Source of the DNA: Euglena gracilis
Taxonomy: Eukaryota
DNA length: 64,000 nucleotides
Direction of reading: 5' to 3'
Assembly: GCA_039621445.1 (NCBI GenBank)
Contig: CP154954.1
Location: forward strand, 44,371,847-44,435,846
The notes under the pieces were generated by a model that saw only the letters and a list, made by a program, of their open reading frames with translations, was not told the DNA's origin and ran no database searches. How positions within the stretch are numbered: position 1 is the first letter of the stretch; the number at the start of each line of letters is the position of its first letter. Positions 6,401-64,000 of this stretch are shown here, in pieces. The position numbers were made by a program, and so were the translations under genes.

Positions 6401-9400
6401 TGTGTGAACCCTTGGGGGGCGGGGTGTCCAAATATAGACTTTCAGAAAATGTGAAACAAAAAAAAACGCAAAAAAAAGGAAACACCAAAAAACCTGCGGA
6501 TAACACAAAGATTTTGGGATTTTTTTGGTGATCAGGTGTACGAAACTGCCAAAAAAGAATTTTGTGGTTTCGGGAACATGCTGATTCCAGAAACATGTTT
6601 TTAAGCCAAAAATGAGAATTACAAAACATTGAACGATAAAAAACTTGGTTTCAGGGTAAAATAAAGTTTAGAATAAAAGCTTTTAAAAAATGATACTGTT
6701 TCCTGCAGAACTTGTTTCCAGCAGGAAAAAATACGTTGGAAACCATAAACAAGGACAAATAAAAAATAACTGCAAAAAACAACAAAACACAAATCGTCAA
6801 GATCGAAAAATATAAAAAAACCCCCACAAAAATACCCCCCTCCCCTGCCAGCCCAAAGCTTCATGCATTCACAGAGAACCCATAGAAAGAGTGGCTGGGG
6901 TGTGCCACGCCTTGAGCATGCTGGACGTGGAGCGTTGCGACGATGGCAGGGCCCCTGTGGCCTCTGTGAGATTCAACAGGAATCGGACCCCCTCAGCGAT
7001 GGGAAGCTGGAGTGGGGCCTCTTGGGACCCTGGCCCACGGCGCCTCCTGCTCGGCATTCTGCCATGCGTTGTCTGTCGTGTTGTCTGCCTCGGTCTCGGC
7101 GGAGGAGGCGGCTGGCTGGGGGCTGGGGGCTGGGGGACGGGGCCTGGCGTCGGATGGCCCACAGGGGACCAAATGTGCCGTTGGCCTGGCACTCCCAAGT
7201 ATCTCAGTGCGGTCCCAATCCACCTCCTGACAGAAAAGTGCACCAAAAAAAGTGCACCATGTTCTGGAAAAGTTTAGCAAACCAAAGGCAGAGGCTTCCG
7301 TCTTCAACTGTAAAATGCAGACTGCGTGTTTTTAAAAAAAATTGGGGAGGAACACCCACAGAGCAGCAGTTCCACCACCCAACCCTGGCACCACGGTGCA
7401 GCCCCGCGGCATTTCCGTGGGAATCTCCGGCCACGCCAGGGATGGGTAGTGTTCCAATGTGCACCCGCTCTGCCAACGGCCGGTGTTCGGCAGGCCCCGG
7501 CCGAGAGGTTGTGAGGCGACGGTGTGCCTGTCGCGGCGAAGAAGGGTCGGTCGGGGGAGAGGACGGGGAAGCGGGGCGGCGGCCCCAGAGCGGGCTGCGT
7601 CACCCCCGTCCCCCCCCCCCGACAACGCGCCCGTGCCGGGGAGCCCTGGAACAGCCGCTCCACCGGTTGAGGAGGGGCGGGCTGTGACCCACACAGAACA
7701 TGCACACACACACATCCACACACACAACACACACGCACACCCACCACACCACACACACCCACACACACAACACACACAACACACACACACACACACACAC
7801 ACACACACACACACACACAAACCCACACCCACACACACCACACCACCACACCCACACACACACCCACCACCCACACGGGGGGACCGCACCCACGGAACAC
7901 ACCACTCACGCCTCCACCCGCTCCTCGCCCCCCCCTCCATGGGACACCACCCACAAGCCTGCAACACCCACCCACAAAAAATAATATACAAAAAAAAAAA
8001 TCCAACTGCCACACAACTTATTGGTCACAGCTCACCCACCCCCTCCATGCAGCAACAAAGAAAATAATTTTACCCGATTTCCCTTTTCGGCCACCCATTT
8101 TCTTTCATTTCGCCATTTTCGGCCATTTTCCTTTTCGTTGGTTGCTGGGGTTTTTGGCACGAAAGATGGCAGACTGGCATTGAGGCGGGGGGGGGGGGGC
8201 GAGAGGCCTGAAATTAAATATTTGTCGAAGACCGAATAATATTACAAAAATATTGCACATGCTTCTGATTATGAGGATCAACTTGAATAGCGCAAGCTTA
8301 TCGCGTGGCATCCACCTCACCTTTTTGGGTCAGCAGATGAAGCATGCCATGCGTGGCGGCAGGCAAGCACCTATAATTGACCCCCAGATTTTCGCCATTT
8401 TCGGCCATTTTCGGCCATTTTCGGCCATTTTCGGCCATTTTCGGCCATTTTCGGCCATTTTCGGCCATTTTTTCCTATAGGTGGGGGGTAAAGCTGCCTT
8501 AAAATTCTTTCATACCAACAATACATTTTGATCATTCAGTCAACATGCAAGCAGCTAACGCATCCAAGGAGGTCCATTTGGAATGGGTGCTCAGGGATTA
8601 AAGAGGTCAAAGAGTTTTTTGTTGCAATATGCAAATGCAAGGTTTTGGGAATAAGCTTCTTTTTTCCTGCCAGAGAGGCTCTTGTCCACTTTGGTCTTTT
8701 TTTGCTGGGGGTTTTTGGGACGCTTCATGAGAGTGGTTGGCACATGACATATTAACCACAATGGTGGATAGCAACACCAAAACTGGTGCTTTTCTCTTCA
8801 AGCCTCTTGGCGTGGATGCTTTTCACAAACAACTTCCCCTCACCTATTCCACTTGGTACCCCAAGCAACATTGTTTGATGGTGGCACTGTTATATCCCAT
8901 CCACTTGTGTGCAATAAACCTAATGCAGGAACCACACCTTTAAGAGAAAAAAATGCTTCACATACTTTGCCAAGTTGCACCTTGTCACCACAATTTTCTG
9001 AAATGTCATCAAAACCATCGACTTTGGCCCAAATAACCCATTTGGAGGTGGTTCGTTGAGCAGCATGTGCAAGCAAAGAAAAGCAAACAAAAGTAAGCAA
9101 ACATGTGATTGGTCCATAATGTTCAAATATTGACATCAAATGTGCTCACCCAATGTCTGCATCTTGTTCAACATCGCATCTCGCCCAGCATCTACATCTT
9201 GTCCAATATCTACATCCGTTGCATCAGCAATCACTGCATCTTGTCTGGTGTGTGCATCTTATCCAATACCTGCACCTTGTCAAGATCTTAATTTGTCCAG
9301 TATCTGCATCCACTGCATCTTCTCCAGCATCAGCATCTTGTCCAGCATCTGCATCTTGTATAGCATCTGCACCTTCTCCAGTGTCGACATCTTGTCCAGT

Positions 9401-12400
9401 GTCTGCATCTTGAACAACGTCTTGAACAACGGCTGCATCTTGTCCAATATCTGCATCTTGTCCAGCATCTGCATCTTGTACAGCATCTGCATCTTGTCCA
9501 GTGTCTACATCTTGTCCAGTGTCTGCATCTTGTTCAGCATCTGCACCTTGTCCAGCATCTGCATCTCTTACAGCATTTGCATCTTGTCCAGTGTCGACAT
9601 CTTGTTCAGTCTGCACCTTGTTCAGCATCTGCATCCATTGCATCTTGTCCAGTATCTGTGACCACTGCATCCACTGGCACCCAACCTAGCAAAATGACCA
9701 CAGAAACCCAAAAAATGACCAGAAAAAACCCCAAATTGACCGCAAAAGGCCCCAAAAAGCAATCAAAATGACCTAAAATTGCTTCAAATAACCTAAACTT
9801 GCCCAAAAACGCCAACAATGTCCACAAAATTGTGAAAAAATAACCCAAAATTACCAAAATGGCGCAAAATGCCATAAAATGGGCTCATATTGACCCAAAT
9901 TAGCCCAATATTTGACGAATCAGTGCAAAATATCCCCAAAATTAGCAAAAATTGATCCAAAATGGCCAACATGGGAATAATATTGGAAATTTGTGGAGAA
10001 ATTATTTCAAAAATGGGTTTAATTCTTCAAAATATACAAAAAAAAATGCCAGCATCGCCCTTGTCACCAATTTTTTTCTGAAATGCCATCAAAATATCAG
10101 CTTTGGCCCAAATAACCCTTTCGGAGGTGGTTCTTTGAGCAGCATGTGTTGCAGGGCCAGGCATAATAACAAAAGAAGAGAGGCTGCACAGAGACAAGAA
10201 TCAGTCGCACTGAAAATTCCCCTCAGGGAAAAAGAAACTGTTAGGCAAAAAAAAAATCGAAAAAAATTTGCAAAATTTTTTTCTCATTTTCGGCCATTTT
10301 CGGCCATTTTCGGCCATTTTCGGCCATTTTCGGGACCCCCACCTATAGAGCCCAAAATTTCATTTTCGGCCATTTTCGGCCATTTTCGGCCATTTTTACT
10401 ATAGGTGCTTGGCGGCAGGCTGCACCGTGGCTGCAAACCGGCGGGTGGGCCACGTCTGCGGCCACCGGTGGCCGCACGGCCCCCTCCTCTGGGGTGCGCC
10501 GCCCCTTGAAGTTCTCCCACGCCCAGTCCCGCTCCCAGCGGTCCTGTGCAGGGGCCGGCCGTCCGCCGCCGGTGGCAAAAACACATGGCCGGAGAGGGAG
10601 CCCCGAGGCATCGGCCACAACGCCGCCCCGCCCCACCGCGGCCCAATGCGGGACCTGGAATGGCAGACCCCCCCCTGGGCCCCCACACTGAGGCCCAGGG
10701 AGAACGGCCGTGGGCTCCCCCGTGGGGGTTTGGGGAGGAGGTGGCAACGGCGGAACAGCGGCGGTTCAGACCTCCCCGCTGCAAGGGCAGAAGCCCCCCC
10801 CCCCCGACCCACTGGCCTGGGGGGGCCGGACCCTTGCCGCGGTCCCACTCCCGGTCTGGTTGGCCGTCCTGGATGCGCTCCAGGTCCAGCTCCCACTCCG
10901 TCCGGTCGCGGCGGCGGCGGGGGTTGAAGAAGCGGATCTCGGGCGGGGCCGCTGGGGGCGGGGTTGGGGTGGACTGGAGGATGGACGGACGCCGCAGGTG
11001 GGCAGGCCGCGGCTCGAACGCGGGGCGGCACCTCCCCTGACGTTTGGGAGTGTGCGGGAGAGAGTGAGGGAGCCCTACCGGGGCGCTCCACGCAAAGCCA
11101 TGGCACGACACACACACACACATGTGTGTGTGGGGGGGGGAGTGTGGGGGTGACAGGGGGGGGGGAGTGTGGGTGTGGGGGGTAAGTGTGGGGTGACAGT
11201 GGGGGGGGGGGGGAGTGTGGGGGGCGACAGTGGGGGGCTGATGTGGGACACTTCACTGTTGTGCTCTGCAACAGTGAACGTTTTTGCACCGCAGACTTTT
11301 AATCATGTCGGAATTTGTATTATTTTCTTTCTGCTTGAGGTGCAAATGGTGTTCTGGTGTCTTGGGACGTGAGACACATGTCAACTACCTGGGTTTTTTG
11401 TTCACTTGCCGCTATTTTCTATCTTCGTGTTCGGAAGATAGGATTTTGTTATTTTGGATCTGGGGGGGGTCCGGGGGGGCGCCCCCCCCCCCCCCCGGAC
11501 GAGGACGAAGGCCGAGTAAGTCAAAAAATGACACTCAAACGTTGGGCCACATGCAGGAATTTGGCAATTTCCTTTTCACAGAAAAGGGAAGTGTGGGTGG
11601 GGGGTAAGTGTGGGGTGACTGTGGGGGGGAGTGTGGGGGGGAGTGTGGGGTGACAGTGGGGGGGAGTGTGGGGGGTAAGTGTGGGGTGACAGTGGGGGGA
11701 GTGTGGGGGGTAAGTGTGGGGTGACAGTGGGGGGGAGTGTGGGGGGTAAGTGTGGGGTGACAGTGGGGGGGAGTGTGGGGGGGAGTGTGGGGTGACAGTG
11801 GGGGGGAGTGTGGGGGGGGAGTGTGGGGTGACAGTGGGGGGGAGTGTGGGGGGACAGTGGGGGGGAGTGTGGGGGGGAGTGTGGGGTGACAGTGGGGGGG
11901 GGAGTGTGGGGGGGAAGTGTGGGGTGACAGTGGGGGGGTGGGGGGGGAGTTTGGGGTGCGACAGTGGGGGGCTGATGTGGGACACTTCACTATTGTGCTC
12001 TGCAACAGTGAACGTTTTTGCACCGCAGACTTTTAATCATGTCGGGTATTATTTTCTTTCTGCTTGAGGTGCAAATGGTGTTCTGGTGTCTTGGGACGTG
12101 AGACACATGTCAACTACCTGGGTTTTTTGTTCACTTGCCGCTATTTTCTATCTTCGTGTTCGGAAGATAGGATTTTGTTATTTTGGATCTTGGGGGGGGC
12201 GGGGGGGGGGGCCCCCCCCCCCCCCCCGGACGAGGCCGAAGGCCGAGTAAGTCAAAAAATGACACTCAAACGTTGGGCCACATGCAGGAATTTGGCAATT
12301 TCCTTTTCACAGAAAAGGGAAGTGTGGGTGGGGGGTAAGTGTGGGGTGACTGTGGGGGGGAGTGTGGGGGGGAGTGTGGGGTGACAGTGGGGGGGTGTGG

Positions 12401-63887: not shown

Positions 63888-64000
63888 GTTGGGATCAGCC
63901 ATAAATAAGAGGTGTAAACCCCCCAAAACCACCCAAAAATGGACATCTTTTGGCCATTTTTGATCCCCGGTTTCCCAAAGATTTTGGCGCTTTACGCTGA

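What the first reader, a model, noticed from the sequence alone, without database searches (positions are those of the whole stretch)
8356..63895. At least ten 8-bp-TSD elements whose symmetric ends could be spliced out in either orientation
Seen: elements at 8364, 15812, 16440, 31327, 33402, 37975, 41016, 42396, 58681 and 63444; six have perfect TSDs. All start CAG (one CAA) and end CTG (one TTG). Most TSDs have T at position 2 and/or A at position 7 (GTCCCAAC, ATTCCAAC, GTTGGGAT), the preference known for Ac-family hAT elements. Inference: TIRs read the same on both strands, so any insertion carries the paired-end signal. The nonconventional splicing system may thus act as a host tolerance mechanism for hAT insertions.
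Basis: partly seen in the sequence, partly recalled or inferred. Interest (0 to 1): 0.8.

Follow-up and report, generated by a model that had tools for sequence, protein, structure and literature searches.

The report
Jumping genes spliced as Euglena introns
Small cut-and-paste transposons in this Euglena DNA duplicate eight bases where they land, and the two copies that sit inside protein-coding sequence are cut out of the RNA together with exactly eight extra bases, which restores the message and points to the origin of this alga's odd introns.

Summary
All ten elements are real non-autonomous inverted-repeat transposons with 8-bp target-site duplications (TSDs): six TSDs are perfect and four match 7 of 8. 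The ends are CAG...CTG, with one CAA...TTG. A scan found 10 such pairs in the window against 0.42 per shuffle. A nested insertion with a paralogous empty site proves the 8-bp duplication.

New here: RNA reads were laid on 25701-36630, which holds two of the ten. Both lie in coding sequence and both are removed from RNA as element plus exactly 8 nt (348 and 423 nt). DNA contigs keep them. One host gene, EMC10-like, has seven GT-AG introns, and this element is its only nonconventional intron.

The published Euglena splicing code has 3 nt before CAG and 5 nt after CTG. These sum to 8, the TSD length, so splicing restores the pre-insertion message.

The hAT assignment is likely but unproven. The 8-bp TSD and the T2/A7 target bias (11 of 20, p=0.001) fit, but no transposase was found. 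Splicing in either orientation is inferred, not shown. Eight elements were not tested with RNA.

The MITE (miniature inverted-repeat transposon) origin and tolerance ideas are already in print as hypotheses. Earlier notes of this scan reported transposon-as-intron cases elsewhere in this genome.

The parts
8364..10411 (.). 2048-bp non-autonomous element with CAA...TTG ends. TSD GCGGCAGG at 8356-8363 and 10412-10419. Carries 10-bp subterminal arrays and an 18-bp tandem array.
   Evidence: TSD 8/8, TIR 13/14. Not tested with RNA.
15812..16045 (.). 234-bp family-A element. TSD CCCCTGGC / CCCCTGAC (7/8). Its left TIR has decayed.
   Evidence: Internal similarity to 37975-38250 and 34479-34734.
16440..16725 (.). 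286-bp family-A MITE. TSD ATTCCAAC (8/8), TIR 14/14.
   Evidence: folds with CAG:CUG paired on both strands.
31327..31666 (.). 340-bp family-B MITE inside the coding sequence of gene 1 (minus strand). Removed from RNA as a 348-nt nonconventional intron (element plus 8).
   Evidence: joint 31320->31669: skips 348, 7 letters fit on either side of the joint. Seen in X1 and X3 contigs (one each) and in 3 raw RNA reads of X21; 0 in DNA run X20. X20 contig 31547-32003 bridges the element's right border. NC code fits on the minus strand. The ORF is open across the joint.
33402..33816 (.). 415-bp family-A MITE inside the coding sequence of gene 2 (EMC10-like, minus strand). Removed from RNA as a 423-nt nonconventional intron (element plus 8).
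   Evidence: joint 33392->33816: skips 423, 9 letters fit on either side of the joint. Seen in one X1 contig and 7 raw reads (6 starts) of X21; 0 in X3 and 0 in DNA run X20. X20 contig 33751-34163 bridges the right border. Transcript-derived protein P0003 runs straight across the joint.
37975..38250 (.). 276-bp family-A MITE. TSD GTCCCAAC (8/8), TIR 14/14. Lies inside a conventional GT-AG intron of gene 2 (about 37126-38369).
   Evidence: intron b borders solved from P0003.
41016..41300 (.). 285-bp element. TSD TGAGCCAT / TGAGCAAT (7/8), TIR 11/14.
   Evidence: Not tested with RNA.
42396..42898 (.). 503-bp family-B MITE. TSD GTTCAGCC (8/8), TIR 13/14. Paralog of 31327-31666 (about 77% identity over the aligned parts).
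   Evidence: Not tested with RNA.
58681..59044 (.). 364-bp family-A MITE. TSD TCGCAGAT / ACGCAGAT (7/8). Serves as the 'empty-site' paralog for the insertion at 63444.
63444..63887 (.). 444-bp MITE. TSD GTTGGGAT (8/8), TIR 14/14. Nested inside an older copy related to 58681-59044 (host parts about 63351-63443 and 63896-63967).
4809..5468 (.). 660 bp, CAG...CTG ends, TSD CTCGGGGG / CTCGGAGG (7/8), TIR 11/14.
34479..34734 (.). Family-A copy without a recognisable TSD, inside a conventional intron of gene 2 (33861-35159).
39074..39473 (.). Decayed family-B copy (flanks match 4 of 8).
32494..38627 (-). Gene 2, EMC10-like, 265-aa product. It has eight introns: seven conventional GT-AG and one nonconventional, which is MITE 33402-33816 plus 8 nt.
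   Evidence: (Pfam ECM10, E=1.2e-4, 23.4 bits against a cut-off of 23).
25701..31770 (-). Gene 1 (part), function unknown. Nine exons are seen, three of them 21-31 nt. All eight introns are non-GT-AG, and one of them is MITE 31327-31666 plus 8 nt.
   Evidence: (joints), (195 codons open across all joints on the minus strand only).

Best explanation
The ten elements are non-autonomous cut-and-paste DNA transposons (MITEs) of at least three families. They insert with an 8-bp target-site duplication, and they are most likely mobilised by a hAT-type transposase encoded elsewhere in the Euglena gracilis genome.

How a copy in an exon is handled:
1. Its inverted ends pair in the pre-mRNA into a helix that starts CAG:CUG.
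2. Euglena's nonconventional splicing machinery, whose proteins are unknown, cuts 3 nt upstream of that helix on the 5' side and 5 nt downstream on the 3' side.
3. Because 3+5 = 8 = the TSD length, both cuts fall at the same place (between bases 5 and 6) in the two TSD copies. The ligated mRNA is therefore letter for letter the pre-insertion sequence.

Shown here:
- The elements, their TSDs and one DNA-level insertion.
- Removal of element plus 8 nt from RNA for the two copies in coding sequence.
- Fit to the published code.

Inferred:
- The hAT partner.
- The exact cut positions inside the TSD, because the repeats make the joint slidable.
- Orientation independence.
- That this is the general origin of the nonconventional introns.
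For: Elements are real and not chance:
- 10 hits in the window against a mean of 0.42 in 12 shuffles.
- 0.33 in 30 shuffles for the stricter scan.

Insertion at the DNA level with an 8-bp duplication:
- The nested element 63444 is flanked by GTTGGGAT twice. The paralog 58681-59044 has it once at the same place.
- Family copies lie elsewhere in the window.
- Summed DNA word depth over 33366-34095 is 3400-6400, against about 30 for the DNA contigs that lie on unique stretches (table 8). This is a rough sign of high copy number only.

Splicing:
- Joints skip 348 nt (340+8) and 423 nt (415+8).
- The 348-nt joint stands in the X1 and X3 contigs and 3 raw X21 reads. The 423-nt joint stands in the X1 contig and 7 raw X21 reads (X3: 0).
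- Neither joint stands in DNA run X20, whose contigs bridge the right border of each element.
- X20 shares the RNA runs' variant letters (for example 35250 A>G and 35287 C>T), so it is the same kind of strain.

Independent transcript for gene 2:
- Protein P0003 (source name eukprot:EG_transcript_24389) is 100% identical to exon 35162-35320.
- It contains the whole 180-aa translation of the spliced exons, joint included.

Both elements lie in coding sequence:
- Frames are open across all joints.
- Read unspliced, 31327-31666 gives a stop five codons into the element (P0004).

Geometry and code:
- N3-CAG...CTG-N5|R fits both spliced elements on the gene's strand.
- It fits 15 of 18 element-orientations.
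- CAG:CUG is paired in 18 of 18 folds.
- The exon starts with a purine at 9 of 9 nonconventional introns seen.
- The published mutagenesis fixes spacers of 3 nt and 5 nt (PMC12501133, sections 8, 10 and 11 read).

hAT:
- 8-bp TSD in 10 of 10.
- T2/A7 in 11 of 20 (p=0.001), which matches Hermes' 5'-nTnnnnAn-3' and 8-bp TSD (PMC10368747, passage read).
- Ends start CAG or CAA.
Against: - Only 2 of the 10 elements could be tested with RNA. Those two belong to two different families, so no family shows spliced copies in both orientations.
- No transposase was seen. Pfam found none in 110 of 160 ORFs of at least 140 aa (whole window) or in 57 of 95 ORFs of 75-139 aa (27-47 kb). The rest were dropped as low-complexity. 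Shorter ORFs outside 27-47 kb were not scanned.
- The TSD bias rests on ten sites.
- Five of the eight nonconventional introns of gene 1 do not fit the strict code, and I saw no convincing TSD at the gene-1 introns whose flanks I compared by eye, so not every such intron is recognisably a transposon.
- 3 of 18 element-orientations lack the exon-start purine. The 8364 element has CAA/TTG, which is outside the published motif.
- X1 and X3 are only guessed to be RNA by the tool, and contigs can drop rare alleles. An element-free allele is therefore not formally excluded by X20.
Confidence: 0.8

Rival explanations
1. Same biology, but the elements belong to another superfamily that makes 8-bp TSDs (P, Merlin, Mutator-like, Zisupton or Novosib) and not to hAT.
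For: - No transposase was found, and no genome is held to search.
- Merlin families with 8-bp TSDs are reported in E. gracilis (PMC8101967, passages read).
- Only 5 of the 10 left ends fit the hAT 'YARNG' start, a motif I recall and did not check.
Against: - Merlin ends start GG in all families described (PMC8101967). Here the 8-bp repeats abut CAG/CTG directly in 10 of 10 elements, and the empty-site paralog fixes the boundary.
- The T2/A7 target bias (11 of 20, p=0.001) is the hAT (Hermes) pattern (PMC10368747).
Confidence: 0.25
2. The 8-nt repeats are scars of double-strand-break repair, or of intron spread through RNA (reverse splicing), and not transposase target duplications. The introns came first and the dispersed copies are their descendants.
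For: Milanowski et al. 2016 (PMC4770533, passages read) saw 8-nt direct repeats at a newly gained intron in E. agilis gapC and proposed break repair.
Against: - Each copy has its own 8-mer, duplicated from the local target. An intron moving as RNA would carry its old 3+5 flanking bases along.
- One copy inserted into another MITE, and an empty paralogous site exists.
- Copies also lie inside conventional introns: 37975-38250 and 34479-34734.
- The palindromic target bias typical of a transposase dimer is present.
Confidence: 0.05
3. The RNA joints come from element-free alleles or paralogous gene copies and not from splicing.
For: - Contigs can drop minor alleles.
- P0003 differs from the window at one residue (Q/H), so allelic variation exists.
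Against: - The joined forms are absent from DNA run X20 (0 contigs), which carries the elements at both loci and shares the RNA runs' variants.
- The same RNA records skip all other introns of both genes.
- Both joints fit the experimentally defined splicing code (PMC12501133).
Confidence: 0.04

Closest known systems
Nonconventional (NC) introns of euglenids. Code 5'-N3CDG-/-CH'GN5-6|R (Nomura et al. 2025, PMC12501133; Milanowski et al. 2014, PMC3935182, and 2016, PMC4770533).
   Same: - Both spliced elements have non-GT-AG borders, CAG at +4..+6, CTG at -8..-6, a paired stem beyond those triplets, and a purine at the exon start.
- Their borders are slidable because of direct repeats.
- A MITE origin and a tolerance role are proposed in these papers.
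   Different: - Here the introns are identified as members of dispersed repeat families with exact 8-bp TSDs, with paralogs outside exons and an empty-site paralog.
- The 3+5 spacer rule is explained as the TSD length.
- In the text I read, the papers treat the repeats as a nuisance ('slidable introns') or as repair scars. They name no transposon family or superfamily ('hAT' and 'TSD' give 0 hits in PMC12501133).
Introner elements of Micromonas and Aureococcus, and noncanonical introners of Amoebophrya and Polarella (review PMC11282704, passages read; Huff et al. 2016, seen only as a citation).
   Same: Small TIR/TSD DNA transposons that become introns on insertion. Their splice sites are placed relative to the TSD so that the mRNA is restored.
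   Different: - Those are removed by the spliceosome, using GT/AG partly supplied by a 3-5-bp TSD.
- These are removed by the structure-guided nonconventional pathway and have 8-bp TSDs.
hAT superfamily: Hermes, hobo, Ac/Ds and hAT MITEs. Ds can be spliced out of maize transcripts (Giroux et al. 1994, seen only as a citation in PMC3935182).
   Same: 8-bp TSD, an nTnnnnAn-like target bias, short TIRs that begin CAG or CAA, and non-autonomous derivatives.
   Different: - No transposase with matching ends was found here.
- Ds removal uses cryptic spliceosomal sites and is imprecise (recalled). Removal here is exact.
Merlin transposons of E. gracilis (PMC8101967).
   Same: Same organism, and 8-bp TSDs.
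   Different: Merlin TIRs begin GG. These begin CAG or CAA directly after the TSD.

Membership tests
MITE / non-autonomous TIR transposon | Short, without coding capacity, terminal inverted repeats, target-site duplication, several copies | tested here: met
   - Nine elements of 234-503 bp and one of 2048 bp.
- TIR 11-14 of 14 in 8 of 10.
- TSD 7-8 of 8 in 10 of 10.
- Family copies in the window.
- No Pfam domain in the ORFs scanned.
Euglenid nonconventional intron | Removed from mature RNA although the borders are not GT-AG | tested here: met
   Joints of 348 and 423 nt stand in RNA and not in DNA. No GT/GC-AG option exists within the slide range. Tested for 2 of the 10 elements only.
Euglenid nonconventional intron | CDG at +4..+6 and the complementary CH'G at -8..-6 (spacers N3 and N5-6), with a stem continuing inward | tested here: met
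   - Both spliced elements fit on the gene's strand, with helices of 5 and 8 bp exactly at N3/N5.
- The CAG/CTG motif is present in 18 of 18 element-orientations (nine CAG...CTG elements on both strands), and 15 of the 18 also have the exon-start purine.
- Not met by 8364-10411 (CAA/TTG).
Euglenid nonconventional intron | Purine as the first base of the downstream exon | tested here: met
   9 of 9 nonconventional introns seen in the laid stretch. 15 of 18 element-orientations.
Euglenid nonconventional intron | Excised as a circular RNA, after the conventional introns | not tested
   Known from the literature only (review PMC11282704, passages). The laid reads were not examined for back-splice joints.
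hAT superfamily | 8-bp target-site duplication | tested here: met
   10 of 10 elements. Confirmed by an empty paralogous site.
hAT superfamily | Target preference 5'-nTnnnnAn-3' | tested here: met
   11 of 20 strand-symmetrised positions against a background T of 0.213, p=0.001. The pattern is cited from PMC10368747. The sample is small.
hAT superfamily | Short TIRs with the conserved start YARNG (motif recalled, not checked in a paper) | tested here: inconclusive
   CAGGG in 5 of 10 left ends, CAGGC in 3, CAGGT in 1, CAAGC in 1.
hAT superfamily | Autonomous partner that encodes a BED / RNase-H-fold DDE / hAT-dimerisation transposase and has the same ends | not testable with these tools
   No genome is held for this window. 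None was seen in the window's scanned ORFs.
Merlin superfamily | TIRs that start with GG | tested here: not met
   All ten start CAG or CAA directly after the TSD. The rule is taken from PMC8101967.
Introner-like element | One repeat family supplies introns to several unrelated genes | tested here: inconclusive
   Two families each have one spliced member (in two different genes), plus non-intron paralogs. A genome-wide count was not possible.

The most novel reading that the evidence does not exclude
Euglena's second splicing system is in effect an RNA-level precise-excision system matched to one class of 8-bp-TSD (hAT-like) transposons.
- Its fixed 3-nt and 5-nt offsets exist because they sum to the TSD length.
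- The transposase's palindromic target bias (T2/A7, Y3/R6) supplies the pyrimidine|purine junctions and the exon-start purine.
- Most nonconventional introns, which are the majority of introns in Euglena, are old insertions of such elements.
Probability: 0.4. Interest if true: 0.85.

Novelty: new variant of a known kind. Interest (0 to 1): 0.75.

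Why it matters
**The open question.** The origin and the odd 3/5 geometry of euglenid nonconventional introns have been open for about thirty years. A MITE origin was proposed in 2014 and was still called 'plausible to assume' in 2025 (PMC12621601, discussion passage).

**What this window adds.**
- It gives concrete, checkable cases: named repeat families with exact 8-bp duplications whose copies in coding sequence are removed as element plus 8 nt.
- It gives a simple arithmetic reason (3+5 = 8) why the mRNA is restored.

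**What this makes testable.**
- A genome-wide overlay of 8-bp-TSD elements on RNA-defined introns.
- A search for the autonomous partner.
- Knock-ins in both orientations with the published reporter.

**If it is general.** Euglena would be the clearest case of a host splicing pathway matched to a transposon superfamily. Its intron load, 71.8% nonconventional in E. agilis according to PMC12501133, would be a transposon record.

Tried and rejected
- **Whole-genome search for a hAT transposase (PF05699) in the window's own genome.**
- **The look-up of sequencing runs.** No RNA holder listed. The runs were laid anyway.
- **ORF-continuity test after removing element plus TSD.** The translations looked like GC-rich non-coding sequence and I took the elements to be non-genic. 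The RNA and P0003 later showed that this reading was wrong for 31327 and 33402.
- **Weak Pfam MBOAT_2 hit at 28771-29181, minus strand (E=0.0033).** The stretch is almost all intron according to the RNA. Rejected.
- **TPR ORF 51779-53026 as a handle on an annotated protein.** No hit at E<=1e-10.
- **Gene 1 exon search.** It found only an unspliced Logan ORF (P0004), so gene 1 has no independent spliced protein.
- **Look-up of element 33402-33816 in earlier findings by sequence.** Nothing.
- **The 36006-39665 hit of the scan.** A-rich ends, taken as a false positive.
- **Literature searches for a stated link between Euglena, hAT, TSDs and introns:**
  - 0 papers;
  - only the Merlin paper;
  - nothing beyond the MITE hypothesis.
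  - Subscription papers and figures or supplements I could not see (for example Fig. 1B and the SI of PMC12501133, on sliding distances) may bear on this.
- **Orientation independence.** I looked for a second family-B copy used as an intron in the opposite orientation. The copy at 28141-28327 lies inside intron 28040-28965, but its ends do not coincide with the intron's ends. No test was possible.

Full report
**1. The observation**

The window is GC-rich (about 55%), full of microsatellites, and eukaryotic.

Partner ends were found for nine at once. The tenth, 15812, ends at 16045 and was found through its family's right end.
- Six TSDs are perfect: 8364, 16440, 33402, 37975, 42396 and 63444.
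- Four match 7 of 8: 15812, 31327, 41016 and 58681.
- Nine elements begin CAG and end CTG. The 2-kb element at 8364 begins CAA and ends TTG.

A clean scan asked for CA[AG]...[CT]TG ends, TIR of at least 11/14, TSD of at least 7/8, length 60-4000 nt, and no microsatellites.
- It returned 10 hits in the window, against a mean of 0.42 (maximum 2) in 12 dinucleotide shuffles.
- The elements at 15812 and 58681 fall below the TIR threshold because of decay or an indel.
- An earlier scan with exact TSDs and any termini gave a mean of 0.33 in 30 shuffles.

**2. They are transposons that inserted as DNA**

BLAST of the elements against the window groups them as follows.
- A 'CAGGG/CAGGC-T-rich' family group (A): 15812, 16440, 33402, 37975, 58681 and 63444, with 41016 more distant.
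- A 'CAGGGTTCGATATAAGG' family (B): 31327 and 42396.
- The CAA...TTG element at 8364.
- Further copies and fragments lie at 34479-34734, 39074-39473, 28141-28327 and 44067-44216.

Element 63444 is nested in an older copy related to 58681-59044. The host copy has GTTGGGAT on both sides of the insert, and the paralog has it once at the homologous position. This is a paralogous empty site. It fixes the element borders at CAG...CTG and the duplication at 8 bp.

In the DNA run, summed word depth over 33366-34095 is 3400-6400, against about 30 for contigs on unique stretches. This is a rough sign of many near-identical copies.

**3. Two of them are introns in coding sequence**

I laid four runs on 25701-36630, a stretch without long microsatellites that holds two of the ten elements.
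- X1 and X3 are transcript-like contigs, which the tool only guesses to be RNA.
- X21 is raw RNA-seq reads.
- X20 is a DNA-type run that holds 0.61 of the sampled words of the 10-kb query stretch 30001-40000.

Results:
- A joint 31320->31669 skips 348 nt, which is 340+8. It stands in the X1 and X3 contigs and in 3 raw reads of X21. It has 0 in X20.
- A joint 33392->33816 skips 423 nt, which is 415+8. It stands in an X1 contig and in 7 raw reads with 6 starts. It has 0 in X3, whose contig does not reach that far, and 0 in X20.
- X20 contigs bridge the right border of each element (31547-32003 and 33751-34163).
- X20 shares the RNA runs' variant letters, so the elements are present in the DNA of that kind of strain.

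Gene 2 (minus strand, 38627 down to about 32494):
- Exon 35162-35320 is 100% identical to protein P0003 (265 aa, source name eukprot:EG_transcript_24389). I take this name, and earlier notes of the scan, to mean Euglena gracilis. The reading of the prefix is recalled.
- P0003 contains the whole 180-aa translation of the spliced exons, including the joint across the element.
- P0003 has a weak ECM10 match at its C-terminus (PF21203, E=1.2e-4, 23.4 bits against a cut-off of 23).
- Solving the remaining borders from P0003 gives eight introns. Seven are conventional GT-AG. The eighth is the MITE.
- Two more MITEs (37975-38250 and 34479-34734) lie inside conventional introns of the same gene.

Gene 1 (minus strand, seen from 31770 down to 25701):
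- It has nine exons, three of them 21-31 nt long, and eight introns, none of them GT-AG.
- 195 codons are open across all joints, on the minus strand only.
- The MITE 31327-31666 is one of these introns.
- Read unspliced, the frame stops five codons into the element (P0004).

**4. Geometry**

The published code is 5'-N3CDG-/-CH'GN5-6|R.
- The 5' spacer is fixed at 3 nt, and the 3' spacer is 5 nt (6 is tolerated).
- The stem is essential, and the exon must start with a purine.
- Source: PMC12501133. I read the abstract, sections 8, 10 and 11, and discussion passages.

How the data fit:
- Both spliced elements fit this code on the gene's strand, within the slide range allowed by their TSDs.
- Since 3+5 = 8, the intron is the last 3 nt of one TSD copy, the element, and the first 5 nt of the other copy. 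Both cuts fall between TSD bases 5 and 6, and the pre-insertion sequence is restored. This arithmetic is my inference. I did not find it in the texts I read.
- Among nine CAG...CTG elements taken on both strands, 15 of 18 satisfy N3/N5|R.
- In minimum-energy folds of N3+element+N5, CAG pairs with CUG in 18 of 18.
- In the laid stretch, 9 of 9 nonconventional introns are followed by a purine.
- 7 of the 9 have a helix of 4-9 bp exactly at N3/N5-6. Random intervals reach 5 bp or more in about 2% of trials. The four conventional introns have 3 bp or fewer.
- Only 3 of the 8 gene-1 introns fit the strict CDG code. The others use other paired triplets, such as GAG/CTC and CAA/TTG.

**5. Superfamily**

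- An 8-bp TSD with a CAG or CAA start fits hAT.
- The strand-symmetrised TSD shows T2/A7 in 11 of 20 (p=0.001), Y3/R6 in 15 of 20 (p=0.02) and G1/C8 in 10 of 20. Hermes prefers 5'-nTnnnnAn-3' and makes 8-bp TSDs (PMC10368747, passage read).
- Merlin is reported in E. gracilis with 8-bp TSDs, but its ends start GG (PMC8101967, passages read). That feature is not met here.
- No transposase domain was found in the ORFs scanned, and no genome could be searched.
- hAT therefore remains the most likely assignment, at about 0.6-0.7, and is not shown.

**6. What is known**

- Milanowski et al. 2014 proposed MITE-like insertion as the source of these introns. They noted that no transposon was then known in euglenids (PMC3935182, passages).
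- Milanowski et al. 2016 saw 8-nt direct repeats at a newly gained intron and read them as break repair (PMC4770533, passages).
- The 2024 review speaks of TSD-like repeats (PMC11282704, passages).
- Nomura et al. 2025 set aside 69.1% of the nonconventional introns as 'slidable'. They repeat the MITE and tolerance ideas in the discussion.
- A 2025 diplonemid paper still calls the origin 'plausible to assume' (PMC12621601, passage).
- My searches found no paper that names families, an 8-bp TSD rule or hAT for these introns. The library lacks most subscription journals, and I could not see figures or supplements.
- Earlier notes of this scan reported MITE-as-intron cases elsewhere in this genome. 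I did not test those.

**7. Limits**

- Eight of the ten elements have no RNA test.
- The cut positions inside the TSD cannot be read from the sequence.
- Orientation independence is an inference from symmetry.
- The TSD statistics rest on ten sites.
- X1 and X3 are RNA by inference: they lack all introns and agree with X21.

Noticed in passing
window 27773-28008 (minus strand, intron of gene 1): This 236-nt intron is spliced in RNA. It has CAAGC...GCTTG at +4/-8, that is CAA/TTG, which is outside the published CDG/CH'G motif. Its ends resemble the TIR of the 2-kb element at 8364. By eye, from the flanks printed, it is flanked by a 9-nt direct repeat matching 8 of 9, which would not sum with 3+5.
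   Followed up: partly
window 29351-29715 (inside intron 28987-29698 of gene 1): Summed DNA word depth is about 121,000, against about 30 for contigs on unique stretches. RNA depth is also very high. This points to an extremely abundant repeat whose nature I did not work out.
   Followed up: no
window 31300-31320, 28966-28986, 28009-28039: Micro-exons of 21, 21 and 31 nt in gene 1, each lying between two nonconventional introns.
   Followed up: partly
window 31423-31515 (inside element 31327-31666): A 93-bp unit with 13/14 inverted ends and exact 8-bp flanks AAAGCGCC. It may be a nested mini-element or an internal palindrome.
   Followed up: no
window 8364-10411: The CAA...TTG element carries arrays of the 10-bp unit TTTTCGGCCA just inside both ends, in the same direction, and an 18-bp tandem array at 9176-9650. 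Similar 10-bp arrays occur at 41830-42149.
   Followed up: no
window 51779-53026 (minus strand): An ORF with strong TPR matches (TPR_12, E=1e-18) is interrupted by an (AC)117 microsatellite at 52531-52751, presumably an intron. No relative was found at E<=1e-10 among proteins of 228-728 aa.
   Followed up: partly
window 24400-25555: A block of about 1.1 kb of (TACA)n and (ATGT)n tetranucleotide repeats forms long inverted arms. By the RNA contig lengths it probably lies in an intron of gene 1.
   Followed up: no
window 37036-37122 (minus strand): The window encodes H where transcript-derived P0003 has Q (residue 63). This is an allelic or strain difference.
   Followed up: no
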